From positions 11,680,001 through 11,744,000 of the forward strand of contig CP086569.2 in assembly GCA_009914755.4 (NCBI GenBank): DNA of 64,000 nucleotides, given 5' to 3'. This DNA comes from the human T2T-CHM13v2.0 reference genome, Homo sapiens. Below, in pieces: positions 3,361-58,600 of the stretch (its first letter is position 1; every line of letters starts with the position of its first letter). Below the pieces are notes generated by a model, which saw nothing but the letters and a program-made list of their open reading frames with translations, ran no database searches and was not told the DNA's origin. Both the position numbers and the translations under genes were made by a program.

Positions 3361-3651
3361 TTTTTGAGACAAGGTCTAGCTCTGCTGCCCAGGCTGGAGT
3401 GGAGTGGCGTGAATATGGTTCAGTGAAACCTCCACCTCCCTGACTCAAGTGATCCTCCTTCCTCAGTCTCTCGAGTAGCTAGGACCACAGGCACGCCACC
3501 ACCATGGCCAGCTAATTTCTTTTTGATTTTTTTAGAGATGAGGTCTCACTTTGTTGTCCACGCTGGTCTCAAACTCCTGGGCTCAAAGGATCCTCTTGCC
3601 ATGGCCTCCAACAGTGCTGGGATTTATAGGTGTGTGCCATGGCACCAGGCC
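3361..3651 (-). mobile_element. Alu, full length, antisense
   Basis: tttttgagacaaggtctagctctgctgcccaggctggagtg...gtgctgggatttataggtgtgtgccatggcaccaggcc. Confidence 0.85.
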
Positions 3652-6240: not shown

Positions 6241-6545
6241 AGCAAATTTAGGCTGGGCATTGTGGCCCATGTCTATAATCTCAGCACTTTGGAATGCCGA
6301 GGCGGGCAGATCACTTGAGGTCAGGAGTTCGAGACCAGCTGACCCAACATTGTGAAACCCTTTCTCTACTAAAAATACAAAAATTAGCCGGGGATGATGG
6401 CATGTGCCTGTAATCCCAGTTACTTTGGAGGCCGAGGCAAGATAATCGCTTGAACTGGAGAGGTGGATGTTGCAGTGAGCCGAGATTGCACCACTGCGCT
6501 CCAGCCTGGGCAACAGAGCAAGACTCTGTCTCAAAAAAAATAAAA
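6241..6545 (+). mobile_element. Alu, full length, sense, A-rich tail at 6532-6545
   Basis: ggctgggcattgtggcccatgtctataatctcagcactttggaatgccgaggcgggcagatcacttgaggtcaggagttcgagaccagc...gcactgcgctccagcctgggcaacagagcaagactctgtctcaaaaaaaa; the minus ORFs 6169..6577 are artefacts. Confidence 0.9.
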
Positions 6546-8687: not shown

Positions 8688-9007
<320 letters not shown>

Positions 9008-34600: not shown

Positions 34601-37600
34601 GGAATGGACTGAAATGGAATGGAATGGAATGTAAAGGAATGGAATGGAATGGAATGGAATGGAATGGAATGGAATGGAATGGAATTGATTAGAATGGAAT
34701 GGAATCAGATGGAACGGAATGGAATGAAAAGGAGTTGAATGGAATGGCATCAAATTCAATGGAATGGAAGGGAATCAAATTGAATGGAAATGAATGGAAT
34801 GCAAGGGTATGGAATGGAAAGGAATACAATGGAATTGAAATGGATGGAACGCATTTGAAAGGAATTGAGTCGAATGCAATATAATCGAATGGAATGGCAT
34901 CGAATGGAATTTAATGGAATGCAATGGAATGGACTCGAAAGGAAAGGATTTGAATGGAGTGGAATCGAATGTAATGGACTGGAGTGGAATGGACTCGAAT
35001 GAAATGGAAACGAATCGAATCGAAGGGAATGGAAAAAAAAAGGAATAGAATGGAATGGAATTGTATGTAGCAGAATGGAATGGAATGGAGTTGAAGAGAA
35101 TAAATTGGAATGGAATGGCACTTCGAATGGAATGGAATGAACTCTGATGGAATTGACTCGAATGGATTAAAAAGAATGGAATGCCATCGAATGAAATGGA
35201 ATGGAATTGAATGAAATGGACAGAAATATAATGGACCCAAATGTGATGGACTCGAATGGAATGGACTCAAATAGATTGGGATCGAAAAGAATGGCCTCGA
35301 ATGGAAATTATTCGAATAGAATGGAATTGAAAGGAATGGAATAGTATGGAATGGAATAGAATGGAATGGAATCAAACGGAATGGAACGTAATGGAACAGA
35401 TTGTAATAGAAAGTGCTCGAATGTAATGGATTTCAAAGCAATTGATTGGAATTGAGTGGAATAGAATGGAATGTAATCAAATGAAATGGAATGGAATGCC
35501 ATGGAATGAAATAGAATGGAATGCAATGGATTTAAATAGAAAGAAATGCAATGGAATGGAAAGGAGTGCAATCGAGTAGAATGGAATCAAATGGAATGGA
35601 ATCGAATGTAATGGACTGGAACGGAAAGGACTCCAATTGAATGCACTGCAAAAAATGCAAACGAATGGATAGGTATTGAACGGACAAGAATGGAATGGAA
35701 CTGAAAGGAATGGACTCGACTGGAATGGAGTGGAATGGAATGGAATCGAATAGAAAGGACTGGAATTGAATGGAAACTAATTGAAAGGAAATCAATGGAA
35801 TGGAAAGAATGAAATACAATGGAAAGGAATGCAATACAATGGAACAGAATGGAATGAAAAGGTATAGAATGGAATGCAATCATGTGGAATGGAATAGAAT
35901 GGAATGGAATGGACTCCAAGGGAATGGACTCAAATGGAATAGAATGGAAAGGAAGGGCATGGAATGGAATTTAAAGGAATGGAATAGAATGCAGTGCACC
36001 GAAATGTAAGGGAATCAAAAGGAAGTTACTCAAATGGAATTTATTCGAACAGAATGGAATCAAATGGAATGCAACAGTATGGAATGGCATCAAATAGATT
36101 GGAATCGAACACAGAGGACTGGAGTGGAATGGACTGGAATAGAACGGACCAGAATGCAATGAATTGCAATGTAATCGATTTGAATGGAAAGGAATCGAAT
36201 GGAATGTATTCAAATGGAATGGAATGGAATGCAATGGAATGGAATAGAATGGAATACAATGGAATGGAATGGAGAGGAAACGAGTGGAATGGAATGGAAT
36301 GGAATGGAATGGAACGGAATGGAATCTATTGGAATTGATTGAATTGGAATGGACTGGAAAAAAATGGAATTGAAATGATTGGAATCAAGCGGAATGGAAT
36401 GGAATGGAATGGAATGCAATGGAATGGAAAGGAATGGAATGGAATGGAACAGAATGGAACGGCCTAGAATGGATTGCACTGAAATGGAATGGACTGGAAC
36501 AAAATGAAATCGAACGGATTGGAATCGGGCAGAATTATATGGAATGGAAGGGAAGGGAATTGACTCGAACAGAATGTAGTCGAATGGAATGGAATCGAAT
36601 AGAATGGAATTGAATGGAATCGAAATGAATAGAATTAAATTGACTGTAATGGAAAGATATCGAATGGAAGGGAATGGAAAGGACTCGAATGGAATGGACT
36701 GGAATGGAATGGATTCAAAGGGAATGTAGTGGAATGGAATGCAGTAGAATGTAATGGAAAGGAATGGAATGGAATGGAAAGGAACGGAAAGGAATAGAAT
36801 GGAATGGAATCAGATGCAACAGAATGAGATGGAATAGATTCAAATGAAATGGACTCCAATGGAATAGAATAGAATGGAATGGCATCGAATAGTATGGCAT
36901 GAAAGGGAGTGTAGTGGAAAGATATCAAATAGAATGGAATGGACTCGAATAGAATCGACTGGATTGGAATTTACTCGAATGGAATGGAATAGATTGCAAG
37001 GGACTCGAATGGAATGGAAACGAATGGAATGGAATGGAATGGAATGGAAAGGAATAGAATGGAATGGAATCAGATGGAACGGAACAGAATTTAATGGAGT
37101 CAAATCGAATAGAATCGAATGGAATGAAACGGAATGGACTCGAATGAAATGGACTAGAATGGAAAGGAATCTAATGGAATGGCATGGAATGGAATAGAAT
37201 TTAAAGGAATAGACTGGAATGGAATCGGATGGAATGGAACGAAATTTAATGGAGCCAAATGTAATAGAATCCAACAGAATGGCAATGAATGAATGAAATG
37301 GAATGGACTCGAATGAAACGGACTAGAATGGAATATAATCGAATGGAATTCCATGGAATGGAATGGAATGGACCAAAATATAATACACTCGAATGGAATC
37401 AACTCAAATATAATGGAAACGAAAGGAATGGTCTCGAATGGAATTTATTTGAATTTAATGAAATCTAATGGAATGCAACAGTATGGAATGGTATTCAATG
37501 GAAAGGAATCGAATGGAATGTACTGGTATGGAATGGAGTGAAATGGAATGGACTCGAATGTAATGCATTGCAAAGTAATTGATTTGAATGGAATGGAATC

Positions 37601-40600
37601 GAATGGAAAGTAATCAAATGGAATGGAATGGAATGGAATAGAATGCAATTCAATGGACTGGAATCGCATGGAAAGAAGTGGAATAGATTCGAATGCAATG
37701 GAAAAGAAAGGATTGGAATCGAATGGAATGGACTCGAAAGGAATGGAGTGGAATAAAATGGAATTGAATGGATTGGAATCGAACAGAACGGAATGGAGTG
37801 GAATGGAGTGGAATGGAATGGAATGGAATGGAATGGAATGGAATGGAATGGAATGGAATGGAATGGAACCGAATGGAATGGAGTCAAATGGAATGGAAAT
37901 GAATGGAATGGAAAGGAACAGAATGGAATAGTGTGGAATGGATAAATATGGAGTGGAATGGAATGGAATGGAATGGAATCAAAAAGAATGGGCGGGGTAG
38001 TTATGGAATCCAATGGAATGGACTACAACGGAATGGACTCGAATGGAATGGAAACGAAGGGAATGGAAAGGAATAGAATGGGTACGAATAGAATAGAATG
38101 AAATAGGATTGAACAGAATGGAATGCAATGGAGTGGAATGGAATAGAATCCAATGGAATGGCATTTAATGGAATGGAATGGAAAGGAATGGACTCGAATG
38201 AAATACAACAGAATGGAATGACATAAAATTAATTGGAAAGGAATGGAAAGGACCCAAATGTAATGGACTAGATTGGAATTTACTCAAATACAGTGGACTT
38301 GAAAGGAATGGTGTCAAATGGAACTTATTCTAATAGAATGGATTCAAATGGAATGCAGTAGAATGGAATGAAATCGAATGGAATGGATTTGAATGGAATG
38401 CAGTAGTATGGAATGAAATCGAATGGAATGGAATAAAATGGAAATGAATTTAAGTGAATGGACTGGAATAGAACGCATAACAATGTAATAGATTGCAATG
38501 TAATTGGTTTGAAAGGAAAGGATTCCATTGGAATATAATCAAATGGAATGCAATGGTATGCAATGGAATGTAATAGAATGGAATGCAATAAAATGGAATG
38601 GAGTGAAATCAAATGGAATGGAATCGAATGGAATGGAATTGAATGGAATGGATTCGAATGGAATGCACTGGAATGGAATGGATTTGAATGGAAAGGAATG
38701 GAACGAAATCGAATTGAACAGTTTGGAATCGAATGCAATGTAATGGAATGGAATGGAATGGAATGAAATGGAATGGAATGGAATGGATTCGAAAGGAATT
38801 GAAGGCTAGAATAGAACTGAATGGAACTGAATGGAATAGAATGGAATGGAGGGTAATGGAAAGACATCGAAAGGAATGCAATGGAAAGGACTCGAATGGA
38901 AAGGACTGGAATGAAATGGACTCGAGTGGAATGGACTGAAATGGAATGGAGACGAATGGATTGGAATGGAATGGAATGGAAAGGATTGGAATGGAATGGA
39001 ATCTGATGGAATGGAATGGAATGAAGTGGTGTTGAATGGAAAAGAATCATATGGAATGGCATTGAATGGAACGGAATAGAATGGACAGAAATAGAATGGT
39101 ATCGAATGTAATTTATTTGAATAGAATGCAATCGAATGGAATGCAATACTATGGATTGGAATCGAATGGAATGGAACGGAATAGATAGGACTGAAATAGA
39201 ACGGACTCGAATGAAATGGATTGCAATGTAACTCATTCAAATGGAATCGAATTGAATGGAATATCATCTTATGAGATGGAATGCAATGCAAAGAAATGGA
39301 ATAGAAAGCAAAGTAAAGGAAAGGAACGGAGTTGAATCGAGTGTAATGGAATCAAATGGAATGGAATCGAAAGGAAAAGACTGGAATGGAATGGACTCGA
39401 ATGGAATGCATTTTAACAAAATGGAATTGAAAGTATTGGAATCGAACGGAAAGGAATTTAATGGAAAGGAATTGAATAGAATTGAAAGGAATAGAATGGA
39501 ATTGAGTGTAATGGAATGATATCGAATGAAATGGAATGGAAGGTAATGGACTCAAATGGAATGGACTGTAAAGGAATGGACTCGAAAGGAATGGACAGAA
39601 CTGGAAAGGACTCGAATGAAATGGAAATGAATAAAATAATTTTGAATGGAATAGAATAGAATGGAATGGAATCAGATGGAACGGAATGGAATGGAATGGA
39701 CTTGAAAGGAATGGACTCGAAAGAAATAGAATAGAATGGAATGGAAGGGAAGGAGTTTAATGGAAAGATATCGAATGAATTTAAAGGAATGGAATGGAAT
39801 CGAATGGAATAGACTGGATTGGAATTTAATGGAATGGACTGGAGTGGAATTTACTCGAATGGAATAGAATGGAGTGGAATGAACTCGAACGAAAAGTAAA
39901 CAAATGGAATGGAATGGAATGGAGTGGAATGGAATGGAATGGAACGGAAAGGAATAGAATGAAATGGAATCAGGTTGAAAATAATGGAAAGGAATGGAGT
40001 CGAATGGAATGGAATCGAATGAAATGGCATCGACTGGAATAGAATGTAATGGGCTCAAATGGAATGGACTCGAATGGAATAGAATGCAATGGAATGACAT
40101 AGAATGGAATAGAATAGAATGGATTGGAATGGAATGGAATGGACCCAAATGTAATGGACTCGAAAGCAAGGGACTCAAATAGAATGGTCTCAAAGGAATG
40201 GTCTCGAATGGAATTTATTAAAATAGAATGGAATCGAATGGAATACAATAGTATGGACTGGAATCGAATGGAATTCAATAAAGTGAAATGGAATGGAATG
40301 GAATGGAATGGAGTAAAACGGACCAGAATGTAATGGATTGCAATGTAATTTATTAAAATGGAATGGAATTGAATGAGATTTAATCAAATGTAATGGCATG
40401 GAATGCAACGGAATGGAATAAACTGGATTGCAATGGAATTGAACGGAGTGGAATCAAATGCAATGGAACCGAATGGAATGGAATCGATTGGAATTGACTG
40501 CTATTTAATGGACTGATAGGGAATGGACTCGAATGGATAGGACTGGAACAACATGGAATCGAATGCATTTGAACTGAATGGAAAGGAAAAAAATGGAATA

Positions 40601-43600
40601 GAATGGAATGAACTCGAGTAGAATGGAATCGAAAGGAATGGAACTGAATGGAATGAAACTGAATGGAATCAAAAGGAACAGAATGGAATGGAGTGTAATG
40701 GAAAGGCATTGAATGGAATAGAAAGGAATTTAATGGATTCAAATGGAATGGACAGGAATGAAAAGTGGTCGAATTGAGTGGAATAGATTGGAATGGAATA
40801 GAATAGAAAGGAATTGAATGGAATCAAAGGGAATAGAATTGAATGGAGTGTAATGGAAGATATCTAATGGAATGGAATGGAATGGAATGGGCTCAAATGG
40901 AAATGTCGGTAATGGAATGGACTCCAGTGGAATGGCCTGGAGGGGAATGGATTAGAATGGAATGGAAGCAAACGGAATGATATGGAATGGAATGGAATGG
41001 AATGGAATGGAATGGAACGGAATGGAAAGGAATAGAAAGGAATGGAATAGGTTGCAATAGAATGGAATGGAATGGAGTCCAATGGCATAGAACAGAAAGC
41101 AATGGCGTCGAAAGGAATGGAATGGAGTGGAATCGAATGGAACCGACTGGAGTGGAATTGACTCGAATGGAATGGAAACGAGTGGAATGGAAGGTACTGG
41201 AATTGAAAGGAATAGAATGGAATCGGATGGAACTTAATGGAATGCAATGGAGTCGAAAGGAATAAAATCGAAAGGAATGGCATCAAACGGAATGGAATTG
41301 AATGGAATGAACTCGAATGGAACTTATTCAAATGGAATGGAATAGAATAGAATGAAATGACTTCGAATGGAAAAGAATGGAATCTAATGGACCCAAATGA
41401 AATGGACTCGAATGGAATGGACTCAAATATATTGGACTTAAAAGGAATGGTCTCGAATGGAATTTTTTCGAATAGAATGGAATTGAAAGGAATGAAATAA
41501 TATGAAATGGAATCGAAAGGAATGGAATCAAGTGGAATGGACCGGAATGGAATGGACTGGAACGGAACGGACTCGAATGTAATGGAATGCAATGTAATTG
41601 ATTCGAATCGAATGGAACGTAAAGAAATGGAATGGAAAGGAATGCAAAGGAATGTAATAGAATGGAATGAAATGGAATGGATTTTAATGGACCCAAATGT
41701 GATGGACTCGAAAGGAACGTACGCAAATATAATACACTCATAAGGAATGGTTTCGCATGGTATCTATTAGAATTGAATCGAATCGAAAGGAATGCAATAG
41801 TATGGAAAGGAATCGAATGGAATGTGATAAAATGTAATAGACCGGAATGGAATGGACTGCAATAGAATGGACTGTATTGCAACGTAATTGATAAAAATGG
41901 AATGGAATCAAATGGAATGAAATCTAACGGTATGTAATGGAATGCAATTGAGCGGAATAGAATGGAATGCAATGTAATGGAATGGAGTGGATTCAAGTGG
42001 AATGGAATCACATGGAATGGAATCGAATGAAATGGAATTGGATGGAATGGACTGGAATGGAATGGACTCCAATGGAAAAGACTGGAACAAATGGAATAGA
42101 AGGAATTGGAATCGAATGGAAAGGAATGAAATGGAATGGAATGAACTCTATTGGAATGGAGTTCAATGGAATTATACCGAATTTAATGGAATAGAATGGA
42201 ATGGAATTGAATGTAATCAAAAGGAATATAATTGAATGGAGAGTAATGGATAGATATTGAATGGAAAGGAATGGAATGGAATGTGCTCGAATGGGATGGA
42301 TTGAAATTGAATGGATTCGAATGTAATGCAATGGAGTGGAACGGTCAGAAATGGAATGGGAAAGAAGGGAATTGAATGGAATGGAAAGGAATAGAATGGA
42401 ATTAACTCGGATGGAACAAAATGGAATAGAATGGAGTCGTATGGAATGGAATAGAATGGAACAGCATCAAATGGAATGGAGTGGAATGGAATGGACCCAA
42501 ATGTACAGGATTCAAATGAAGTGGAATCAAATAGAATGGACTTGAAAGAAATGGTATCGAATGGAATTTGTCCGAATAAAATGAAATCGAATTTAATGCA
42601 AAAATATCGAATGGAATGAAATGGAATTGAATGGAGTGAACTGGAATAGAATGGACTCAAAGGTAATGGATTTTAATGTAATTGATTCGAATGGAATGGA
42701 ATCGAATGGAACTTAATCAAATGGAATGGAATGGAATGCAATGGAAAGTAGTAGAATGGAATGCAAAGGAAAGGAACAGTGTGGCATCGAGTGGAATGGA
42801 ATCGAATGGAAAGGAATCGAACGGAATGGAATCGAACAGACTGGAGTGGAATGGAATGGACTCGCACTGGAAGAAAATGCAATGGAACGGATTTGAATCG
42901 AACAGAAAGGAATGGAATGGAACGGAATGGAATGGAATGGAATGGACTTCAACGGAATGGATATGAATGGAACGGAACCGATTGGAATGGAACCGAATAG
43001 AATGGAATTGAAAGGATTCAAAAGGAAGAGAATGGAATAGAGTGTAATGGAAAGATATTGAATGGAATGGAATGGAATGGACTCAAATGAATTGGACAGG
43101 AGTGGAATGTACGCTAATGCAAGGGACTGGAGTGGATTGGACACGAATGAATTGGAAACGAATGGAATTGAACGAAAAGGAATGCAATTGCATCCATAGG
43201 AATAGAATGGAATGGAATCGGATGGAACGGAATGGAATGGAATGCAGTAGAATGGAATAGAATACCATGCAATGGTTTCAAAAGGAATAGAATGAAATGG
43301 GACTGGATTCAAATGCAATGGACTCGAAAGGAATAGAACACAATGGACTGGTTTAGAATGGAATGCATTGAAATGGAAAATAATGGAATGGATTCGATTC
43401 AAATGCAATGGACTCAAATGGAATAGAATCGAATGGAATGGCATCGAATGGCATGGAATTGAATGGAATGGATTGGATTGAAATGCAATGGACTTGAATG
43501 GAATGGAATAGAATTGAATATACTGGCATGAAATGCAAAGGAATGGAATGGAATGGAAAGGAAAGAACGGAATGGAATGGACACAAATGTAATGTATTGA

Positions 43601-46600
43601 AATGTAATGGACTCAAATAGAATGGACTCCAAAAGGATTGGTCTCGAATGGAATTTATTCCAATAGAATGGAATCTAATGGAATGCAATACTACGGAATG
43701 GAATCAAATGGAATGGAATTGAATGAAATGTAATCAATCTGAATGGATTGGAATGCAAAGGAATGGAATTCAGTGGAATGCAAAAGAAAAGAAAGGAGTG
43801 GAATTGAGTGCAATGGAGTCGAATGGAATGGTATTAAATGGAATGAAATCGAATGGAATTGACTGGAATGTAATGGACTCGAATGGATTAAACAGGAAAA
43901 AAATGGTGTCGAACAGATTGGAATCTAATGGAATGGAATGGAACGAAATGGAATGGAATGGAATGGAATAGACTCAAAAGGAATGGAGTCGAATTTAATG
44001 GAGTCAAATGGAATGAAATCGAATGGAATGGACTGGAATGGAATTGAAAGTATAGAATGGAATAGAGTGTAATGGAAAGAAATCGAATGGAATGGAATGG
44101 AATGGACTCGAATAGAATGTATCGGAATTAAATGGACTTGAATGTCATGGACTGGAGTTGAATGGACTCGAATGCAATGGAAACGAATGGAATGGAATGG
44201 AGTAGTGTTCAAAGGAGTAGAACGGAAAGGAATAGAATGGAAGGGAAGCGGATGGAATGGAATTAAATGGAATCAAAAGGAATAGAAAGGAAAGGAGTGT
44301 AACAGAAACATATCAAATGGAATGGAATGGACTCGAAAGGAATGGACTGCAATGGAATGGACTCGAATGGAAGGGACTGGAGTAGAATGGCCCCGAGTGG
44401 AATGGAGACGAATTGAATGAAATGGAATGGAAAGGAATGGAATGGAATGGAATGAAGTGTAATGGAAAGAATTAGAATGGAATGGAATCGGATGGAACGG
44501 AATGGAATGGAATGGAGTCGAATGGAATAGAATCGAATGCAATGGCATCAAATGGAATTGAATGGACTCAAAGGGAATAGAATTGAATGGAGTGACATGG
44601 AATGAAATGGATTGTAATGGAATGGACACTAATGTAATGGGATGTAATGGAATGGACTCAAATAGAATGACCCCAAAAGAAATGGTCTCGAAAGTAATTT
44701 ATATGAATAGAATGGAATAGAATAGAATGCAATAGCATAGAATGGAAAGGAATGTAATGGAGGAGAATGTAATGGACCGGAATGGAATGTACTGGAATAG
44801 AACGGACTCGAAAGTAATGCATTGCAATGTAATTGATTTGAATGAAATGGAATCGAATGGAATGTAAACAATTGGAATGGAGTGGAAGGCAATGGGATCG
44901 AATAGAATGTAATGCAATGGAATGGAACGAAGTGGAATCGAATGGAATGGAATCGAATGGAATGTAATAGAATGGAATGGACTGGAAATTAATGATGTGG
45001 AATGGAATGGACTGGAGAGGAATGGACTCGAATTGAATGGAAACGAATGGAATGACATGGAATGGAATGGAATGCAATGGAAAGTAAAGGAATAGCATGG
45101 AATGGAATTGGATGGAACGGAATGGAATAGAATGCAGTCGATTGGAATAGAATCCAATGGAATGTGTTTGAATGGAATGGAATTTAATGGAATAGAACGC
45201 ATTCGAATGGAATGGACTAGAATGGAACAGAATATACTGGAATGGCATCGAATGGAATGGAATGGAATGGAACGGAATAGAAACAAATGTAATGTTCTCA
45301 AATGCAATGGAATCAAATAGAATGAACTTGAAAGGAATGGACTCGAATGGAATTTATTCGAATAGAATGGAATTGAATGCAATGCAATAGTATGGAATGA
45401 AATAGAATGGAATGGAGTTGAATGTAATGGACCGGAATTGAATGGACTGGAATAGAATGGACTAGAAGGTAATGTACTCCAATGTAATTGATTCAAACTG
45501 AATGGAATCAAATGGAATGTAATCAAAAGGAATGGAATTGAATGCAATTGAATGGAACAGAATGAAATGCAAAGGAATGGAAACGAGTAGAATCGAGTGG
45601 AATGGAATCGAGTGGCATGAAATTGAAAGGAATGGAATCGATTGGAATGGATTGGACAGTTGTGGACTCCAATGGATAGGAATTGAACAAAATGGAATCG
45701 AACAGATTTGATTCAAACATAACGGAATGGTATTGCATGGAATGCACTATAATGGAATGGAGTCGAATGGAATGCAGTCGAATGGAATGGAATGATATAC
45801 AACGGAATTGAATGGAATCGAAAGGAATACAATGGAATGGAGTGTATGGAAAGAAATCGAAAAGAATGGATACGAATGTAATGGACTGTTGTTGAATGGA
45901 CTCGAATGGAATGGAAACGAATGGAATGTAATGGAAAGGAGTGGAATGGAATGGAATGGAATGGAATAGAAAAGAATGGAATGTAATGGAAAGGAGTGGA
46001 ATGGAATGAAAAGGAAATCAATATAATAGAATGTAATTATATGGAACAGAATAGAATTAAAAGGATTGGAATGGAATACAATCAAATGGGATGGGATCAA
46101 ATGAAATGGAATGGAATTTAATGGAATGGACCCAAATGTAATGGACTCGAATGGAATTGACTCAAATAGAATGGACTCGAAAGGAATGGTCTTGAATGGG
46201 GTTTATACAAATAGAATGGAATCGAATGGAATGGAATAGAATGGAATTGAATGGAATGGAATGGAGTCGCTGGGAATGGACCGGAATGGAATGGACTGGA
46301 AAATAACGGACACGAATGCAATGGATTGCAAGGTAACTGATTCGAATGGAATGGAATCGAACGCAATGTAATCAAATGGAATGGAATGGAATGCAGCGGA
46401 ATGAAAGCAAATGGAAGGCATTTGAATGGAACGGAGTTAAATCGAGTGGAATGGATTCTAATGGAACGGAATCATATGGAATGGAATGTAATGGAATGGA
46501 ATAGAATGGACCTAAAGGTAATAGACTCTAATACAATGTACTCGAAAAGAATGGCAGCGAATGGAATTTATTCGAATACAATGGAATTGAATAAAATGCA

Positions 46601-49600
46601 ATAGTATGGAATGGAATAGAATGGAATGGAATTGATTGCAATCGAAAGAAATAGAATGGAATGCAGTGTAATGGAAAGATATTGAATGGAATGTAATGGA
46701 ATGGACTCAAATGGACAGGACGTTAATGGAATGGTTTTGAATGGAATGGACTAGTGTGGAATGGATTCGAATGGAAAGTAAAAGAATAGAAAGGAAATGA
46801 ATGGAATGGAATGGAAAGGAATACAATGGAAAGGAATTAGATGGAATGGAATGGAATGGAATGGAGTCGAATGGAAGAGAATAGAATGGAGTGGCATTGA
46901 ATAGAATGGAGTGGAAGGGAATAGAATGGTTATGAAAGGGATGGATTCGAATGGAATAGAATCGAATGGAATGGCATGGAATGGAATGGAATGGAATGCA
47001 ATGGAATGGAATGGAATTCAATGGAATGGAATGGAAAGGACCCAAATATATTGGACTCAAATGGAATGCACTCAAATAGAATTGATTCAAAAGGAATGGT
47101 TTCAAATGAATTTATTCTATTAGAATGTAATCGAACGGAATACAATAGAATGGAATGGAATCGAAGATAATGGAATAGAATTGAATGGAATGGAATGGAA
47201 GGGACTGTAATAGAACGGACTCGAATGTAATGGATTCCAAAGTAATTGCTTTGAATGGAATGGAATTGAATGGAATATAATAAAATGTAATGGAATGGAA
47301 GGCAATAGAATGGAATAGAGTGGAATGCAGTGGAATGGAAAGGAGTGGAATCGAGTGTAATGAAATCAAAAGGAATGGAATCGGATGGAATGGAATTGAT
47401 TGGAATGGACTGGAATGTAATGGACTCGAATGGTTTTGACTAGAAAAAAATCAAATCGTACAGACTGGAATTGAACAGAAGGGAATGGAATGGAATAGAA
47501 TTGAATGGAATTGAGTTGAATGTAATGTAGTCGAATGGAATGGAATCGAATGGAATGGAATATAATGGAATTCAATGACATAGAAAGGAATATAATGGAA
47601 TGGAGGGTAATGGAAATAAATCGAATGGAATGGAATGCAATGGACTCGGATGGAATATACTGGAATGGAATGGACTCGAATGGTATGGACTGGAGTGCAA
47701 TGGACTAGAATGGAATGCAAACGAAAGGAATGGAATGGAATGGAATGGAATGGAATGGAATGGAATGGAATTTAATGGAATGGAAACAATCGAATGGAAT
47801 GGAATCGGTTGGAATGGAATGTAATTGAATGGAGTCAAATGTAATAGAATCATTTGGAATGGCCTCGAATGGAATGGAATGTAATATAGTGGACTGAAAC
47901 GGAATGGACTCGAATGGAATGGATTGATATAGAATGGAAACAAAAGGATGGACTTGAATAGAATTTATTCGAATAGAATGGAGTTGAATGGAATGCAATA
48001 GTATGGTACGTAATCGAATGAAATAGAATCGAATGGAATTGAGAGGAATGGAATGGCCTGGAAAAGTACAGACCCGAATGCAATGTATTGCAAAGTAATT
48101 TATTCAAAAGGAATTTAGTCGAATGGAACATAATCAACGAAATGGAATGGAATAAAATGGAATGGAATAGAATGGAATGCAATGGAATTGAACAGAGTGG
48201 AATTGATTGGAATGGGAACGAATGGAATGGAATCGAATAGATTGGGCTTGAATGGAATGGACTGTAATGCAATAGACTGGAAAAAACCGGAATTGAACGG
48301 ATTGGAATCAAAGGCAAAGGAAAGGAATTGAATGGAATGGAATGGAATGGATTCAAATACAGTGGAATCAAATGGAATGGAATTGATTGGAATCAAAAGG
48401 AAAATAATTGAATAGAGTGTAATGGAAATATATCGAATGGAATGGAATGGAAAGGAATGGTCTCGAATGGAATGGACTGCAATGGAACGGATTCGAATGA
48501 AATAGAGTGGAGTGGAATGGACTCGAAAGAAAGGAAATAAATGGAATGTAAAGGAAAGGAATAGAATGGAATGGAAACCGGATGGAGCGGAAAGGAATGG
48601 AATGGAAAGGAATCAGATGGAACAGAATGGAATGGAATGGAATGGAATTCAATCTAGACAAACGGAATAAAATCAAATGGAATGACATCGAATTTAATGG
48701 AATGGAATAGAATGGACCCAAATTTAATGGAGTCAAATGGAATGGACACAAATAGAATGGATATGAAAAGAATGGTCTCGAATGTAATTAATATGAATAG
48801 ACGGGAATAGGATGGAATGCAATAGTATGGAAAGGAATCGAATGGAATGGAAACGAATGGAATGGACCGGAATGGAATGGAATGGAATAGAACGGACTCG
48901 ATTGTTACATATTGCAATGTAACGGATTCAAATGGAATCGAAAGGAATATAATCAAAAGTAATGGAATGGAATGCAATGCAATGGAATTGAAAGAAATGA
49001 AATGGAATGGAACAGAGTGGAATTAAGTTGAATGGAATCGAATGGAATGGAATCGAGTGGAATGGAACCGAGTGGAATGGAGTTGAATGGAATGGACTGG
49101 AATAAATTGGAATAGAATGGATTGGAAACGAACGGAACGAAATTGAATGGAAACGAATGGAATGGAATGGACTCGAATGGAATGGGGTCGAATGGAATGC
49201 AATTGAATGGATTGGAATTAAATGGAATTGAATCGAATGAAATGGAATTGAAAGGAATCGAAAGTTATAGAATAGAATGAGGTGCAATGGAAGGAACTGG
49301 AATTGAATGGAATGGAATGGAATGGAAACGAATGGAATGGAATGGACTCGAATGGCATAGACTGGAAAGGAATGAACTCGAATCAAATGGAGTCGAAAGG
49401 AATGGAATCGAATGTAATGAAATTGAAAGGAATGAAATTGAAAGGAATTAAAGGAATAGAAAGGAATGGAGTGAAAAAGAAATATATCATATGGAATGGA
49501 ATGGAATGGACTGGAATTGAATGGACTTGAATGGAATGGACTGGAGTGGAATGGACTCGAATGAAATGGACTGGAGTGGAATGTACTAGAATCGAATTGA

Positions 49601-52600
49601 AATGAAGGAATGGAATGGAATGGAATGGAATACTATGAAATGGAACCTTATAGAACAGAAAGGAATGGAATGCAGACGCATGGAATAGAATCTAATGGAA
49701 AGGCATAGGATGGAAAGACTAGAATGGAATGGACTCAAATGAAATGGATTCGAACAGAATATAATTGAATGGAATGGCATCGAGTGGAATGGAATGGAAT
49801 GGGATGGAAGGGAAAGGAACCAAATGTAATGGAGTCTAATGGAATGTACTTAAATAGAATGAACATGAAGGGAATGGTTTCGAACAGATTTTATTCGAAT
49901 AGAATGGAATCGAATGTAATGTAATATTATGGAATGTAATAGAATGGAATGGAATCGAATAGAATAGAATGGAATGGACTGGAATGGAATTGAACGGACT
50001 CTCATGGATTGCAATGTAATAGTTTCGAATGAAATGGAATCAAATGGAATGTAATCAAATGGAATGGAATGGAATGCAATGGAATGGAATAGAATGCAAT
50101 GCAATGGAATGAAACAGAGAATAGTGTGGAATGGAATCGAATGGAATGGAATCGAATGGAATGGACTGGAATGGAAAGGAATCCAATGGAATGGACTGCA
50201 ACAAAATGGAACTGAACAGATTGGAATCGAACTGAATGGAATGAAATAGAATAGAATGGAATGGACTCTAATGGGATGGAGTCGAATGGAACCAAATCAA
50301 ATGGAATGGAGTGGAATGGAGTGGACACGCATGGAATGCACTGGAACAAAATGGAATGGAACGGATTGGAATCGAACAGAAAGGAATGGAATGGAATGGA
50401 ATGGAATGGAATGGAATGGAATGGAATGGAATGAAATGGAATGGAAAGGACTTGAAAGTAATGGAGTTGAATGGAATGTAACCGATTGGAATGGAATCGA
50501 ATGTAATGGAATTGAGTGGATTCAAAAGGAATAGAATGGAATGGAGTGTAGTGGAAAGATATTGAATGGAATGGAATGGAATCAAATGGATTGGACAAGA
50601 GTGGAATGGACGCGAATGGAAAGGAATGGAGTGGAATGGACACGAATGAATTGGAAACGAATGGAATTGAATGAATAGGAATGAAATTGCATGCAAAGGA
50701 AAAGAATGGAACGGAAACGGATGGAACGGAATGGAATGGAATGCAGTAGAATGCAATTGAATACAATGGAATGGTTTCGCATGGGATGGAATGAAATGGA
50801 ATGGAATGGAATGGATTGGATTCCAATGCAATAGACTCGAATGGGATAAAATAAAATGGAATGGTTTCGAATGGAAGGGAATGGAATGGATTGGATTGAA
50901 ATGCAATGGACTCAAATTGAATAGAATCGAATACATCAAATGGCATGGAATTGAATGGAATGGATTGGATTGAAATGCAACGTACTCAAATGGAATAGAA
51001 TCGAATTTAATGGCATGAAATGCAATGGAATGGGATGGAATGTAAAGGAATGGAATGGAATGGACTGGACACACATGTGATGTACTCAAATAGAATGGAC
51101 TCCAAAAGGATTGGTCTCGAATGGAATTTATTCGAATGGAATGGAATCTAATGGAATGCAACACTATGGAATGGAATCAAATGGAATGGAATTAAATGGA
51201 AAGTAATCACACGGAATAGATTGTAATGCAATGGAATGGAAGTCCATGGAATGCAAAGGAAAGGAATGGAGTGGAAATGAGTGGAATGGAATTGAATGGA
51301 ATAGAATCAAATGGAATGCAATCGAGTGGAATTGACCGGAATGTAATGGACTCGAATGGATTAGACAGGGAAAAAACGGAGTAGAACAGAATGGAATAGA
51401 GTGGAATGGAATGGAATGGAATGGAATACACTGGATCCAATTTAATAGACTCAAAGAGAATGGAATCGAAAGGAAAGGTAGCGAATGGAATTTATTCAAA
51501 TACAATGGAATTGAATAAAATGCAATAGTATGGAATGGAATCGAATGGAATGAAATTGAAGGGAATCGAAAAGAATAGAATGGAATGCAGTATAATGGAA
51601 AGACATCGAATGGAATGGAATGTAATTGACTCAAATGGTCAGGAGTTGATTGGAATGGTCTTGAAGGGAATGGACTGGAGTGGAATGGACTCGAATGCAA
51701 AGTAAACGAAAGGAAAGGAATTGAATGGAATTAATGGAAAGGAATAGAATGGAACGGAATTGGATGGAATGGAATGGAGTCGAATGGAATAGAATAGAAT
51801 GGAATGGCATTGAATTGAATGGAGTGGAATGGAGTGGAGTGGAAACAAATGGGATGGATTCGTATGGAATAGAATCGAATGGAATAGCATCGAATGGAAT
51901 GGAATGGAATGGTATGGAATGGATTGGAATGGAAAGGACCCAAATATATTGGACTCAAATGGAATGCACTCAAATAGAATGGACTCAAAAGGAAGGGTTT
52001 CGAATGTATTTATTCAATTAGAATGTAATCAAATGGAAGGTAATAGAATGGATTGCAATCTAAAATAATGGAATCAAATTGAATGTACCAGAATGGAATG
52101 GATTGGTATACAACGGACTCGAATGTTATGGGTTCCAATGAAATTGATTCGAATGGAATGGAATTGAATGGAATATAATCAAATGTAATGGAATGGAAGG
52201 CAATGGAATGGAATAGAATGGAAAGCAGTGTAATGAAATGGAGTGCAATCGAGTTCAGTGGAATCAAAAGGAATGGAATCGAATGCAATGCACTGGAATG
52301 GAAAGGAATCAAATGGAATGGACTGCAACAAAATGGAATTGAACAGATTGGAATCGAACTGAATGGAATGAAATAGAATGGAATGGAATGGAGTCGAACT
52401 GTATGGGGTCGAATGGAATGGAATCGAATGGAATAGAATCGAATGGAATCGGATTGAGTGGAATGGAAGGGAGTGGAATGGAATGAAATCAAATGGAATG
52501 GATTCAAATGGAATAGAGTCGAGTAGAACGGCATCAAATGGAATGGAATGGAATATAATGGAATGGAAAGGAATGGAATGGAATGGACCCAAATGTAATG

Positions 52601-55600
52601 GACTCAAACGGAACGGACTCAAATACAATGGACTTGAAAAAAAAGGGTTTCGAATGGATTTTATTCGTAACAAATGGAATCGAAAGTATTGTAATAGGAT
52701 CGAAAAGAATTGAATGGAATGGAATCGAATGGAATGTACCAGAATGGAATGGAGAGGAAAAGAATGGGCAAGAATATAATGGATTGCAATGAAATTGATT
52801 CGAATGGAATTAAATCGAATGGAATGTAATCAAATGGAATGGAATTCAATGCAATTGAATGGAATAGAATGGAATGCAATGGAATGGAATTCAGTGGAAT
52901 CGAGTGGAATGGAATCAAATGGAAAGGAATAGAATGGAATGGACTCGAATGGAATGGACTTGAAGTAAATGGAATCGTAAGGATTGGAATCAAATGGAAC
53001 AGAACGGAATGGAATTGAATGGAGTGGACTCGAATGGGATGTACTCGAATGGAATGGAATCGAATGGAATGCAACTGAATGGAACCGAATATAATGGAAT
53101 TGAATGGAGTGTAATGGAATGATATAGAATGGAATGGAATGGAATGGAATCGAATGGACACGAATGGAATGGACTGGTCTGGAAGGGACTGGGAAGGAAT
53201 GCATTGTAGTGGAAAGAACTCAAATGGAATGGAAACGAATGTGAAGGAAGGGAATGGAATTGAATGGCAACAAAAGGAAAGGAATGGAATTGAATCGGAT
53301 GGAATGGAATGGAAGGGAATGGAGTTGAGCGGAATAGAATCTAATGGAATGGCATCGAATGGAATGGAATGGACTAGAATGGAACACACTCAGGTTGAAT
53401 AGAATCAAAAGGAATGGCATCGAATGGATTGGAATGGAATGGAATGGAATGGACCCAAAAGTAATGAACTCGAAAGCAATGGATTCAAATAGAATGGACT
53501 CGAAAGAATTGATCTCGAATGGAATATATTCGAATAGAATCTAAAAGAATGGGAAGCAATAGTATGGATTGCAATAGAAAGGAATGGAATTGAACAGAAT
53601 ATAGCGCAATGGAATGAACTGGAAAAAATGGAATCGAACAGATTGAAATCGAACTGAACAGAATGGAAGGGAATGGAATTGAGTGGAATGGAATGTAATG
53701 GAATGGTCTCAAATGGAATGGACTGGAGTGGAATGGAGACGAATGGAATGGAAACGAATGGAATGGAAAGGGATGGAATGGAATGCAAAGGAATATAATG
53801 GAATTGTTTCAGATGGAATGTAATAGAATGGCTTTGAATGGAATAGATTCAAATGGAATGGCATTGAATGGAATCGAATGGAATGGATTGGAATGGAATG
53901 GAATGAAATGGACCCAAAAGTACTAGGCTGTAATGGAAAGGACTCAAATAGAATGGACTCAAAAGGAATGGTCTTCAAAGGAATTTATGGGAACAGAATG
54001 TAATCGAATGGACTGCAATAGTATGGAACGTAATAGAATGGAGCGGAATAGAATGGAATGAAATGGAATACAATGGAATGGAATAGAAAGGACATGAATA
54101 TACTGGATTACAATGCAATTGATTGGAATGGAATGGAATCAAATGTAATGTAATCAAATGGAAAGGAAGGGTATGCAATGGAATGCAATAGAATGGAATG
54201 CATTGGAATGAAACGCAGTGGAATCAAGTGGAATGGAATCGAATGGAATGGAATCAAATGGAATGGAATCAAATGGAGTGGAAACGAATGGAATGGAATT
54301 GAACAGAATGGAATCGAATAGAAAGGACACGAATGAAATGGACAGGAAAAAAACTGGAACCGATCGGAATGGAGTAGAACAGAATTGAATGGAATGGACT
54401 CGAATCAAATCGAGTATAATGCAATGGAAAGTAATGCGATGGAATCGACTGGAAATGAATTGAATGGAAATGAAAGGAAAAGAATGGAATGGATTTTAAT
54501 GGAAATATATCGAATAGGATAGAATGGAATGAAATGGACCCTAAAGGAAAGGGCTGGAATGGATTGGATGCGAATGGAATGTACTGGAGTTAAATGGACT
54601 CTAATGGAATGGAAACGAATGGAATAGAATGGAAAGACATATAATGAAATGGAATCAGATATAATGGAATGGAATAGAATGGTGTCAAATGGAATAAAAA
54701 CGAAAGGAATGGCCTCAAATGGAATGGAATCCAATTGAATGGAATGGAATCGAATAGAATGTAAACGAATGGAATGGAATTGAATAGAATGAAATGGAAT
54801 GGAAAGGACAAGAATGAAATGGATGGGAACGAAATGGAAGAGAACGGACTGGAGTAGAACGGAAAGGAATGGAATGGAATGGAATGGAATAGAATGTAAT
54901 GGAATGGACTCGAATCAAATGGAGTCTAAAGGAATGGAAAGTAATGCAATGGAATCCAATTGAAATGAATTGAATGTAATTGAAAGAAATAGAATGGAAT
55001 GGAGTGTAAAGGAAATATATGGAATGGGATAGAATGGAATGAAATGGACCCTAAAGGAATGGGCTGCAATGGAATGGATGCGAATGGAATGGACTGGAGT
55101 GAAATGGACTCTAAAGGAATGAAAACTAATGGAATGGAATGGAAAGGCATAGAATGGAATGAAATCAGATGGAATGGAATGGAATGGAATGGAATGGAAT
55201 GGAATGGAATGGAATGGTGTCAAATGGAATAGAATTGAATGGAATGGCATCAAATGGAATGCAATGGAATGGAATGGAATGGAATGGCCCAAAATATAAT
55301 TTACTAGAAACGAATGGACTCAAAAGAATGGAGTTAAAAGTCATGGTCTCGAATGGAAGTTATTCGAATACAATGTAACTGAAAGGAATGCAATAATATG
55401 CAATGGAATCAAATAAAATGTAATTGAATGGAATGTACCAGAATGGAATGGACTGGAATAGAACGGACTCGAACGTCATGGATTGCAATGTAATTGATTC
55501 AAATGGATTGGAATCGAATGGAATGGAATCGTATGGAATGGAATTGAATGGAATGGACCGGAAAGAAAAGGACAGGAATAGAATGGAAATGAATGTAATG

Positions 55601-58600
55601 CATTGCAATGAAATTGATTCGAATTGAATGGAATTGAACGGAATATAAACCAACGGAATGGAATGGAATGGAATGCAATGGAATGGAATGGAATGGAATG
55701 CAATTAAATGGAATGGAATAGAAAGGAATCGATTGGAATGGAATCTAATTGAATGGAATTGAATAGATTGGAATTGAATAAAATGTATTGGGAAGGAATG
55801 GACTCGAATCGAATGGATTGGAACAAAACGGAATCGAACGATTGGAATTGAATGGAACGGAAAGGAATGGAATCGAATCGAATGGAATGGAGTCGAATGG
55901 AATGGAATCAATTGGAATGGAAACGAATGGAATGGAGTAGAACGGAACCAAAAGGAATAGATTGGAAAGGATTGTAATGAAATGTTATCAAATAGAATGG
56001 AGTGGAATGGAATGGAATCACATGGAATCGACTGGAATAGAATGGACACGAATGGAATGTACTGCAGTGGAATGGACTTGAAAGAATGGAAACAAAAGGA
56101 ATGGAATGGAATGGTATGCAAAGGAATTGAATGGAAAGGAATCTAATTGAGTGGAATCGAACCAAACGGAATGGAGTGAAATGGACTCGAATGGAATGGA
56201 GTTAATTGGAATGGAATTGAATGGAATGTAATTGAATGGGTTGGAATTGAATGGAATCAAAAGGAATAGATTGGAATTCAGTGTAATTGAAAGATATCGA
56301 ATGGAACGGAATGGAATGGAATGGACTCACATGGCATGGACTGGAATGGAAAGAACTCGAACGGAATGGAGTCGAAAGCTATGGAATTGAATAGAATAGC
56401 ATTGGAAGAAATGGAATTGAAAGGAATTAAAGGAATTGAATGGTATGGAGTGTAATGGAACGAAATCAAATGGAATGAAATGGAATGAAATGGACTCGAA
56501 TGGAATTGACAGGAAAAGAATGGAATCAAAAGTTATATACGTGAGTGGAATGGACTCGAATGAAATGAACTGGAGTGGAATGGACTAGAATTTAATGGAA
56601 ACGAAAGGAATGGAATGGAATGGAATGGAAATGAATGCAATAGAATGGAATGGAATCTGATAGAATGGAAAGGAATGGAATGCAGTCGTATGGAATAGAA
56701 TCTAATAGACTGACATAAAATGGAAAAATGGAATGGAATTGAATGGAATGGAATGGATTCGAATTGAATGGCCTGGAACGGAATGTAATAGAATGGAATG
56801 GCATCGAACAGAATGGAATGGAATGATATGGAAGGGAATGGAACCAAATGTAATGGAATCGAATGGAATAGACTTAAATAGAATGGACTCTAAAGGAATT
56901 GTTTCAAATGCAATTTATTCGAATAGAATGAAATAGAATGTAATGCAATAGTATGGAATAGAATTGAATGGAATAGAATCGAATGGAATGAACAGGAATG
57001 GAATAGACTGGAATAGAACAGACCCTCATGTAATGGATTGCAATGTAATTGATTCGAATGGAATGGAATCTAATGGAATGGAATCAAACGGAAAAGAGTG
57101 GAATGCAATGTAATGGAATAGAATGGAATGCACTGCAATGGAATGGAACAAAATGGAATGGACTGGAACAAAATGGAATCAAAAAGACTGGAATCGAACT
57201 GAATGGAAAGAAATGTAATGGAGTGGAATGGACTTGCATGGAATGGAGTTGAATGGAATGGAATCGAATGCAATGGAATTCAAAGGAATTGAAGAGAATG
57301 AAATGGATTTGAATGGAATGGAATGGAATAGAATAGAATGGAGTGTAATGGAAATATATCGAATGGAATGAAATGAAATGGATTGGACTCGAATGGAATG
57401 GACTGAAATGGAATGAAATTGAATGGAAAGGAGTGGAGTGGGGTGGACTCGAATGGAAAGGAAACGAATGGAATGGAATGGATTGGAGCGTAATGGAAAG
57501 GAATAGAATGGAATGGAATTCGATGGAATGGAATCGAATGGAGTGTAATGGCAAAGAATCTTATGGGATGGCATTGAATGGAATGGAAAGGTATGGAATG
57601 GAATGGACTGAAAGGAATTGATTCTAGTGGAATGGAATCGAATGGAATTGCATCGAATGCAATGGAATGGAATGGAAACGGATGGACAAAATATAATGGA
57701 CTCGAAGGGAATCGACTCAAATAGAATGGACTCGAAAAAAATAATCTCGAATGGATTTTCTTCATATAGACTGGAATCGAATGTATTGCAATAGTATCGA
57801 AAGGAATTGAATGGAATGGAATCTAATGGAATGTACCAGAATTGAATAGAGTGGAATAGAACGGACATGAATGTAATAGATTGCAATGAAATTGATTCGA
57901 ATTGAATTGAATCAAATGGGATGAAATCAAAAGGAATGGAGTGGAATGCAATGGAATAGAATAGAAACGAATGCAGTGGAAAGAACGGAATGGAATCGAT
58001 TGGAATGGACTGGATTGGAATGGACTCGAATGAAATGGAATGGAAAAATAATGGAATCGTATGGATTTGAATTCAACGGAACGGAACGGAACGGAACGGA
58101 ATGGAATGGAATGGATTCGAATGGAAAATAGTCAAATGGAAAGGAATTGAATGGAATGGAATCGAATGGAATGCAACTGAATGGAATAGAAATGAATACA
58201 ATGGAATAGAGTGTAATGGAAAGATATAGAGTGTAATGGAATGGAATAGAATGGACTGGAATGGAATGGACGGGAATTCAATGGACTTGAATGGAATTCA
58301 CTGAAGGGGAATGTACTCGAATGGAATGGAAACCAATGGGATGGAATGGAATGGAATTGAAAGGAAAGGAATACAATGTAATGGAAGCTGAAGGAATGGA
58401 ATGGAATGGAATGGAGTGGAATGGAATAAAATCGAATGTAATGGCAAATAACGGAATATAATGGAATGGAAAGGATGTGAATGGAATTGACTCGAGTGTT
58501 AACGAATCGAACGGAATGGCATAAAATGGAATGTAATATCATGGAATGTAATGGAATGGAATATACCCAAATGAAAAGGATTCAAATGCAATGGATTCAA

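What the first reader, a model, noticed from the sequence alone, without database searches (positions are those of the whole stretch)
42650..51440. Intra-array segmental duplication: about 42.65-43.98 kb against 50.15-51.43 kb (offset ~7.5 kb)
These two ~1.3 kb segments share long near-identical strings well above the background similarity of neighbouring modules. Examples are gagtgta.tggaaagatattgaatggaatggaatggaat..aaatg.attggaca.gagtggaatg..cgcgaatg / ...ggattggattgaaatgcaatggactcaaat.gaatagaatcgaat / ggtctcgaatggaatttattc.aat.gaatggaatctaatggaatgcaa.acta.ggaatggaatcaaatggaatggaatt.aatg. The offset drifts from 7503 to 7472 bp through small indels. Divergent homology continues upstream (42.3 kb against 49.8 kb). 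This suggests a ~7.5 kb super-repeat or a recent duplication by unequal crossing over. The long artefact ORFs 42713..43444 and 50002..51164 (both containing SIPFVSNSFVS) reflect it.
Basis: seen in the sequence. Interest (0 to 1): 0.5.

Follow-up and report, generated by a model that had tools for sequence, protein, structure and literature searches.

The report
Old patchwork duplication inside GGAAT satellite
Two ~1.15 kb stretches of a primate (GGAAT)n pericentromere-type satellite are real but old copies of each other, one of several one-off duplications in a decayed array and not a 7.5 kb repeat unit; this is ordinary satellite DNA turnover.

Summary
Window 42804-43954 and 50314-51427 are each other's closest relatives: 12.4% mismatches, offset drifting 7510->7473. 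The best non-self hit of an ordinary tile is 74-78% identical. The pair shares 57% of its non-GGAAT variants, against ~25% for background pairs.

- There is no 7.5 kb periodicity. The 32 kb array has three strong off-diagonal blocks, each at a different offset (7.5, 4.9 and 5.1 kb).
- The copy is not recent: the two segments are ~12-13% diverged.
- It is not a simple tandem unequal-crossover product.

The second copy (A') abuts, inside a perfect (GGAAT)5 run, a copy (B', 51402-52324) of another segment (B, 46477-47426). B lies 2.5 kb downstream of A and is equally diverged from its copy (13.0%). A'+B' together form ~2 kb of extra sequence inside an older duplicated unit (49.3-54.8 kb vs 56.3-59.95 kb, 16-17% diverged).

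Context: the flank carries Alu elements and a retroviral dUTPase remnant. It is followed by an HSat2B-like block, a strand switch, and then a diverged HSat3-like array (79% pure pentamer) with decayed ~1 kb modules.

This is known satellite biology (local duplication, slippage, ectopic repair). Interest is low.

The parts
31673..64000 (+). Diverged HSat3-like (GGAAT)n array that contains everything below. It is 79% identical to the pure pentamer, has few phase-breaking indels, and shows decayed ~0.8-1.2 kb modules.
   Evidence: Pentamer content. Wrap-around alignment to GGAAT gives 25480 matches, 6791 mismatches and 49 insertions. The landmark motif GGTCTCGAATGGAATTTATTC occurs 27 times with a typical spacing of 0.8-1.2 kb.
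42804..43954 (+).
50314..51427 (+). Segment A', the paralogue of A. It has 12.4% mismatches and the offset drifts from 7510 to 7473.
   Evidence: Jaccard of shared derived variants is 0.57.
43955..46476 (+). Segment x, 2.5 kb lying between A and B. It has no counterpart in the copy and no relative in the window above background-level similarity.
   Evidence: The 300 bp tiles from 43851 to 46251 have best hits elsewhere, at ordinary scores of 77-141.
46477..47426 (+). Segment B, the source of B'. Weaker homology continues to ~47706.
   Evidence: The array's longest informative exact match (56 bp) is 47027/51925.
51402..52324 (+). Segment B', the paralogue of B. It has 13.0% mismatches and an offset of 4925-4898. 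Weaker homology continues to ~52604. It directly abuts A'.
51402..51427 (+). The A'/B' junction. It is a perfect (GGAAT)5 run present at the end of A (about 43929-43954), at the start of B (about 46477-46500) and in the copy.
   Evidence: Three-way alignment. Sequences. The A/A' HSP ends at 51427 and the B/B' HSP starts at 51402.
49320..50170 (+). Segment y, the left part of the older duplicated unit. It pairs with 56299-57160.
   Evidence: Best reciprocal tile hits at offset 6980-7024, 83-85% ungapped. 16.1% mismatches. Profile.
52474..54823 (+). Segment C, the right part of the older duplicated unit. It pairs with 57579-59949.
   Evidence: 16.8% mismatches.
56299..59949 (+). The uninterrupted sister unit (y' + ~0.4 kb + C'). 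It lacks any A'/B'-like block.
52280..52399 (+). A 120 bp patch that is 93% identical to 50153-50272, 2.1 kb upstream. It is a short local conversion or duplication at the right edge of the inserted block.
   Evidence: (40 bp exact match at 50213/52340).

Best explanation
**What it is.** The flagged pair is one of a few old, one-off, dispersed duplications inside a decayed HSat3-type (GGAAT)n array of a primate genome.

**What happened (inferred).** Two segments lying 2.5 kb apart, A (42.80-43.95 kb) and B (46.48-47.43 kb), were copied as one event or two closely timed events. They now lie fused as a ~2 kb block, A'+B' (50.31-52.3 kb). The fusion point is a perfect (GGAAT)5 run. The block is extra sequence within an older duplicated unit (49.3-54.8 kb), whose sister copy (56.3-59.95 kb) lacks it.

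**Mechanism (inferred, not shown).** The likely cause is homology-driven ectopic repair or exchange between misaligned satellite modules. Either the template switched within pure pentamer runs during copying, or a longer copy later lost the 2.5 kb between the two runs. Afterwards both copies drifted ~12-13% apart, and pentamer-sized slippage produced the offset drift.

**Function.** The block has no coding or regulatory role. The long ORFs arise because the ATTCC strand is poor in stop codons.
For: Shown:
- A/A' is real and far above background.
- B/B' is equally strong.
- The two mismatch rates are indistinguishable: 12.4 +/- 1.0% and 13.0 +/- 1.1%.
- A' and B' abut and are collinear with A...B. 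The HSP ends overlap in a (GGAAT)5 run shared by all three sequences.
- The landmark-motif spacing across the junction is only 364 bp, against the usual ~1 kb. The join therefore does not preserve modules.
- The intervening donor segment x has no close relative.
- y/y' and C/C' are reciprocal best hits and collinear. They are more diverged (16.1% and 16.8%; pooled 16.6% vs 12.7% for A/A'+B/B', z about 3.9, from the counts).
- The sister unit passes from y' to C' within ~0.4 kb, where the first unit holds ~2.3 kb.
- There is no periodic pattern.
- The net offset shifts between copies are mostly multiples of 5.

Background: HSat2/3 derive from (CATTC)n. They can form multi-kb nested tandem repeats whose periodicity varies locally (bioRxiv 10.1101/2021.07.12.452052).
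Against: - Block boundaries are blurred at 12-17% divergence.
- My more specific idea, that both insert junctions lie in hybrid 'D' modules, did not hold up cleanly. Only a 120 bp 93% patch was found, and B/B' homology continues at ~81% beyond it.
- The relative ages assume clock-like divergence. Gene conversion could have lowered A/A' and B/B' divergence independently.
- Substitutions are transversion-rich (ts:tv 0.74 between A and A'; 0.53 array-wide). Standard dating is therefore unreliable.
- Direction (insertion in one unit or loss from the sister unit) rests on that age argument.
- No second assembly or outgroup was available.
Confidence: 0.65

Rival explanations
1. A and A' are consecutive copies of a ~7.5 kb higher-order or nested tandem repeat unit.
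For: One strong diagonal lies at offset ~7.5 kb. Multi-kb nested repeats are known in HSat3.
Against: - Only 1.15 of 7.5 kb is shared.
- The array holds room for four periods, yet no other segment pairs at 7.5 kb.
- After removing kb 42-43, the 7.4-7.5 kb offset bin is at background.
- The text dot-plot shows three isolated blocks at different offsets.
- The sequence downstream of A' follows B (offset 4.9 kb), not the sequence downstream of A.
Confidence: 0.03
2. These were two independent in-place gene-conversion events. Pre-existing modules at 50.3-51.4 and 51.4-52.3 kb were overwritten by tracts from A and B, with no net gain of DNA.
For: - The array is built of ~1 kb modules that are ~75% alike, which could support ectopic conversion.
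- The identity boundaries are fairly sharp.
- A short 93% conversion-like patch exists nearby.
Against: - The two tracts have the same divergence.
- They abut exactly, in donor order and orientation.
- The landmark-motif spacing across the junction (364 bp) is not module-preserving.
- The unit is ~1.9-2.1 kb longer than its older sister copy at exactly this place.
Confidence: 0.15
3. This is a recent tandem duplication from a single unequal sister-chromatid or homologue crossover.
For: The copies are in direct orientation, and unequal exchange is the textbook mechanism for satellites.
Against: - The copies differ by 12.4% mismatches plus 11 gap events, so the event is not recent.
- The copies are not adjacent.
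- The interval 43.95-50.3 kb is not duplicated downstream of A'.
Confidence: 0.03
4. The similarity is chance or compositional (both segments unusually close to the pure pentamer), or an assembly artefact.
For: All parts of the array share 72 +/- 2% identity because of their common pentamer ancestry.
Against: - Purity of the two segments is ordinary, 0.77-0.81.
- The excess lies in shared non-consensus variants, Jaccard 0.57 vs 0.25.
- Exact matches of 50 bp carry 17 derived bases.
- Assembly duplication artefacts would be ~100% identical, not 87.6%.
Confidence: 0.01

Closest known systems
Human satellite 3 (HSat3), A-type subfamilies, and its nested tandem repeats (Altemose et al. 2014, PMC4022460; Altemose et al. 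2021, bioRxiv 10.1101/2021.07.12.452052)
   Same: - The satellite is (GGAAT)n/(CATTC)n-derived.
- It sits next to HSat2-type satellite and an Alu/ERV-bearing flank.
- There is a strand switch at the satellite boundary.
- Longer ~1 kb modules are nested on the pentamer.
- The repeat structure is locally variable.
- The HSat3A2 marker 24-mer is present with 1-2 mismatches.
- The landmark motif is shared with human-associated metagenome contigs, some of which carry HSat3A2/A3 markers.
   Different: - No subfamily marker 24-mer matches exactly in the HSat3-like part.
- External HSat3 contigs are at most ~83% identical.
- The array is much more decayed than the homogeneous multi-megabase arrays: ~75% identity between modules and no regular period.
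- Species and chromosome could not be determined.
Alpha-satellite-style higher-order repeats
   Same: Repeats are nested on a short basic unit, in direct orientation.
   Different: There is no constant period and no run of three or more copies. Inter-copy identity is 87.6%, whereas I recall well above 95% for active HORs (from memory, not checked here). The membership features were tested and not met.
Intrachromosomal segmental duplication or templated insertion by ectopic homologous repair (SDSA with template switching, unequal exchange followed by deletion)
   Same: - The copy is dispersed and in the same orientation.
- The composite copy joins two non-contiguous donor segments.
- The junction lies in perfect short-repeat homology, (GGAAT)5.
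- There is a length gain relative to the sister unit.
   Different: The mechanism is inferred from architecture only. The event is old and its edges are eroded. No experimental or population evidence is available.

Membership tests
HSat3-type pericentromeric satellite | The sequence derives from the pentamer GGAAT/CATTC. | tested here: met
   79% of bases match an in-phase (GGAAT)n model, with only 49 insertions in 32.3 kb. GGAAT is the commonest in-phase pentamer (1942 of 6356).
HSat3-type pericentromeric satellite | It occurs in a primate genome. | tested here: met
   Three full-length Alu copies lie in the flank (6251-6539, 8723-9007, 3360-3651). A retroviral dUTPase remnant matches PF00692 at E 9e-6.
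HSat3-type pericentromeric satellite | It carries subfamily-specific 24-mers (Table 1 of PMC4022460). | tested here: inconclusive
   There are no exact matches in the HSat3-like part. The HSat3A2 marker occurs 6 times with <=1 mismatch and 61 times with <=2 mismatches. The neighbouring block has 2 exact and 10 one-mismatch matches to the HSat2B marker. Only one marker per subfamily was available.
HSat3-type pericentromeric satellite | It has a pericentromeric chromosomal location. | not testable with these tools
   No primate genome assembly is searchable here.
Higher-order / nested tandem repeat with 7.5 kb period | Three or more successive copies occur at a constant period. | tested here: not met
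   There is a single pair only, and no other 7.5 kb pairing in 32 kb.
Higher-order / nested tandem repeat with 7.5 kb period | Homology covers the whole repeat unit. | tested here: not met
   Only 1.15 kb of 7.5 kb is shared above background. The flanks are at background level or pair elsewhere.
Simple tandem duplication by one unequal crossover | Copies lie head-to-tail, with the entire interval duplicated. | tested here: not met
   The copies are separated by 6.4 kb of sequence that is not duplicated downstream of A'.
Dispersed templated insertion / ectopic repair product | Extra DNA is present relative to an unaffected sister or ancestral copy. | tested here: met
   The unit at 49.3-54.8 kb holds ~2.3 kb between points that are ~0.4 kb apart in the sister unit at 56.3-59.95 kb. 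The polarity rests on relative divergence.
Dispersed templated insertion / ectopic repair product | The junctions lie in micro- or short homology. | tested here: met
   The A'/B' junction lies within a (GGAAT)5 run shared by donor ends and copy. The outer junctions are resolved only to within ~100-200 bp.

The most novel reading that the evidence does not exclude
Three rearrangements have the same divergence (12.4-13.0%). They are the composite A'+B' block, with its internal junction in a pure pentamer run, and the 510 bp tandem duplication at 54.37-55.29 kb. On this reading they are fossils of one burst of template-switching repair (SDSA/MMBIR-like) inside heterochromatin. That would be a natural record of how decayed satellite edges are remodelled in discrete episodes, not continuously.
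Probability: 0.15. Interest if true: 0.25.

Novelty: already known. Interest (0 to 1): 0.08.

Why it matters
It matters little beyond bookkeeping.
- A single strong diagonal in a satellite should not be read as a higher-order period.
- Long ORFs on the ATTCC strand of such arrays are artefacts.
- For satellite specialists, this is one more example of hyper-local, layered, non-periodic duplication at the decayed edge of an HSat3-type array. That fits published descriptions of HSat2/3 structure.

Tried and rejected
- An exact or 3-mismatch search for the Alu 5' end found nothing. Alignment to a full consensus then found three old Alus.
- Rfam at gathering threshold found nothing in the window.
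- A sensitive BLAST of all tiles timed out. It was replaced by Smith-Waterman tiling and a strict-scoring BLAST.
- An exact metagenome scan with a 34-mer shared by A and A' gave 0 hits.
- Exact look-ups of the two artefact ORFs in public assemblies gave nothing.
- None of the 112 metagenome contigs carrying the landmark 21-mer matches the window at >=90%. The best are 78-83%. No independent copy of this locus was found, and the species could not be pinned down.
- The pentamer-shuffle null destroys too much structure to be informative. The empirical within-array background was used instead.
- I proposed that the insert is bounded by a duplicated hybrid 'D' module, which would be a signature of a crossover within D. 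The profiles show only a 120 bp 93% patch, so I dropped that as a firm claim.
- A/A' mismatches are 86% consensus-versus-derived, exactly the share expected from random point change. This gives no evidence for directional conversion toward the pentamer (my calculation from the counts).
- I did not attempt absolute dating, because the substitution spectrum is atypical.
Full report
**Context.** The window has three parts.
- Bases 1-27.9 kb are ordinary interspersed-repeat-bearing DNA. It holds three full-length, old Alu elements (6251-6539 +, 8723-9007 -, 3360-3651 -) and an ORF with a retroviral-type dUTPase domain (10795-11490 -, PF00692). The source is therefore a primate genome.
- From ~27955 to 31672 lies a satellite written on the CATTC strand. 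It has 23/26 bp units and 2 exact plus 10 one-mismatch matches to the published HSat2B marker 24-mer (marker from PMC4022460).
- At 31672/31673 the strand switches head-to-head. A (GGAAT)n-type array then runs to the end of the window.

That array is 79% identical to a pure in-phase pentamer and has only 49 phase-breaking insertions in 32.3 kb. It has no exact HSat3 subfamily marker. The HSat3A2 marker occurs with 1-2 mismatches. A landmark motif (GGTCTCGAATGGAATTTATTC, <=3 mismatches) recurs 27 times at typical spacings of 0.8-1.2 kb. The pentamer array therefore carries decayed ~1 kb modules.

- BLAST of 42300-44100 against the window finds 49933-51552 at 79.1% over 1668 columns (1117 bits). 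The next hit has 532 bits at 73%.
- With 1 kb tiles, ordinary tiles find a best non-self hit of 74-78% (score 175-310). The flagged tiles reach 83-84% (score 497).
- Segment A scores 556 against A' but only 172 against everything else.
- The core is 42804-43954 vs 50314-51427: 136 mismatches in 1098 aligned bases (12.4%) and 11 gap events.
- Similarity among (GGAAT)n segments depends on how pure they are. I therefore also counted shared non-consensus bases. The pair shares 57% of them, against 25% (maximum 28%) for sixteen best-hit control pairs and 24 +/- 5% for random in-phase pairs.
- The 50 bp exact match at 43611/51084 carries more non-GGAAT bases (17) than any other exact match in the array.

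Three details need correction. The left edge is ~150 bp further right than stated. The 'upstream divergent homology' is only at the level of general module similarity: the upstream tiles have their best hits elsewhere, although a forced alignment gives Jaccard 0.37. The ORF '50002..51164' is two ORFs in different frames.

**What else is there?** The pair is not unique. The self-comparison shows three strong off-diagonal blocks:
- A/A', at offset 7.5 kb.
- B/B', 46477-47426 vs 51402-52324, at offset 4925-4898. It has 13.0% mismatches and contains the array's longest informative exact match, 56 bp.
- C/C', 52474-54823 vs 57579-59949, at offset ~5100, with 16.8% mismatches.

There are also weaker but reciprocal matches:
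- y/y', 49320-50170 vs 56299-57160, with 16.1% mismatches.
- A 510 bp tandem duplication at 54366-54785 / 54876-55285, with 12.9% mismatches.
- A 2.1 kb-spaced pair around 50.0-50.3 / 52.15-52.45 kb.

Offsets of shared rare k-mers show no array-wide period. The peak at 7.4-7.5 kb comes from kb 42-43 alone.

**Anatomy of the copy.**
- A' ends and B' begins in the same perfect (GGAAT)5 run (51402-51427). Equivalent runs close A and open B.
- The 2.3 kb at 50.3-52.6 kb is therefore a composite of two donor segments that lie 2.5 kb apart, kept in order and orientation.
- The 2.5 kb between the donors (43955-46476) has no counterpart in the copy and no close relative anywhere in the window.
- A/A' and B/B' are equally diverged (12.4 +/- 1.0% vs 13.0 +/- 1.1%). 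This favours one event, or two closely timed events.
- The landmark-motif spacing across the junction is 364 bp, not the usual ~1 kb. This is not an in-register module exchange.
- The flanks of the composite block, y on the left and C on the right, are collinear with y' and C' in the unit at 56.3-59.95 kb. There the two are only ~0.4 kb apart.
- That older pair is more diverged (pooled 16.6% vs 12.7%, z about 3.9, from the counts). The simplest reading is that A'+B' was added to one copy of an already duplicated unit.

**Mechanism.** The following is shown directly: direct orientation, non-adjacent copies, a composite structure, a junction in pentamer homology, and offset shifts that are mostly multiples of 5.

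The following is inferred. The cause was an ectopic homology-driven event between misaligned modules. One possibility is synthesis-dependent repair with a template switch in the pure pentamer run. Another is a longer duplication followed by deletion between the two runs. Point substitutions and pentamer slippage followed.

I tested a sharper version, in which both outer junctions lie in a hybrid 'D' module. It was not cleanly supported. Only a 120 bp stretch (52280-52399) is 93% identical to 50153-50272, and B/B' homology continues beyond it at ~81%.

I give no absolute age. Differences are transversion-rich (ts:tv 0.74 between A and A'; 0.53 for all derived bases), and CpG is not depleted (observed 763 vs expected 721). 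A standard neutral clock is therefore unsafe. At 12-13% divergence the event is certainly not recent.

**Related sequences elsewhere.**
- An exact 34-mer shared by A and A' is absent from the metagenome collection.
- The landmark 21-mer finds 112 contigs, and at least one contig name identifies a human gut metagenome. I infer host contamination. Some of the contigs carry HSat3A2/A3/A4/B5 marker 24-mers.
- None matches the window at >=90%. The best matches are 78-83% and fall on the most consensus-like modules (33.0-34.1, 45.1-45.9 and 60.1-61.2 kb). A and A' find only 74-75%.
- Within the data available, A and A' are therefore each other's closest relatives. The array belongs to the same broad module family as human A-type HSat3, but the locus and species remain unidentified.

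**Comparison with what is known.** Everything seen here fits published descriptions of HSat2/3:
- descent from (CATTC)n and division into subfamilies (PMC4022460);
- strand switches at and within satellite blocks;
- multi-kb nested repeats whose periodicity varies locally, 'evolving and expanding hyper-locally'.

The specific claim of a 7.5 kb higher-order unit fails its defining tests. The claim of a simple recent unequal-crossover duplication fails on age and on adjacency.

**Verdict.** This is a correct observation of an ordinary phenomenon. It is an old, dispersed, composite duplication in a decayed primate (GGAAT)n satellite, and it has no evident function. Interest is low and it represents nothing new in kind.

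Noticed in passing
window 31672/31673: There is a head-to-head strand switch. The HSat2-like satellite on the CATTC strand ends (...CATTCGATTCCTTTTGATGATTGA) and the GGAAT-strand array begins (TGGAATGGCGACGAATGG...) with no spacer.
   Followed up: partly
window 27955-31672: This is an HSat2B-like block with 23/26 bp units. It has 2 exact and 10 one-mismatch hits to the HSat2B marker 24-mer. It holds the youngest duplication in the window, 30626-31139 vs 31145-31671 (period ~520-530 bp, 92.7-97.9% identical). The second copy ends at 31671, one base short of the strand switch.
   Followed up: partly
window 46477-47426 vs 51402-52324: A second duplication (B/B') is as strong as the flagged one. 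It has 13.0% mismatches and a 56 bp exact match, and it directly abuts A'.
   Followed up: yes
window 49320-50170 + 52474-54823 vs 56299-59949: This is an older duplicated unit of ~3.6 kb, with 16-17% mismatches. The first copy is interrupted by the A'+B' block.
   Followed up: yes
window 54366-54785 vs 54876-55285: This is a 510 bp tandem duplication with 12.9% mismatches, the same divergence as A/A' and B/B'. It is present in only one of the two older sister units.
   Followed up: partly
window 31.7-64 kb (e.g. 32325, 33244, 35293, 36191, 43640, 51113, 51477, 58623): The landmark motif GGTCTCGAATGGAATTTATTC (<=3 mismatches) recurs 27 times with a common spacing of 0.8-1.2 kb. This indicates a decayed ~1 kb nested repeat. 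The modules at 33.0-34.1, 45.1-45.9, 46.9-47.8 and 60.1-61.2 kb act as consensus-like hubs that many tiles, or the external contigs, hit best.
   Followed up: partly
window 31681-64000: The substitution pattern is unusual. Derived bases relative to GGAAT have ts:tv 0.53, and CpG is not depleted (763 observed vs 721 expected). All C on this strand is derived, and CGAAT is the commonest variant pentamer.
   Followed up: no
window 1-27900: The non-satellite flank holds three old Alus (3360-3651, 6251-6539, 8723-9007) and a retroviral dUTPase-domain ORF (10795-11490, minus strand). It also has a GC-richer stretch at 8-22 kb and a 23 bp GC-rich minisatellite at 22925-23049 (5.4 copies).
   Followed up: partly
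loci L001-L112 (metagenome contigs): 112 metagenome contigs carry the landmark 21-mer; at least one contig name identifies a human gut metagenome. Several have the motif at a 1485 bp spacing (L004, L063, L072), which suggests a regular nested repeat in a related array. None is closer than ~83% to this window.
   Followed up: partly
window 43850-44560 vs 47400-47880: The sequence following A resembles the sequence following B (81-86% in 250-300 bp pieces, offset 3547-3313). This hints at a still older ~3.5 kb relationship between the A and B neighbourhoods.
   Followed up: no
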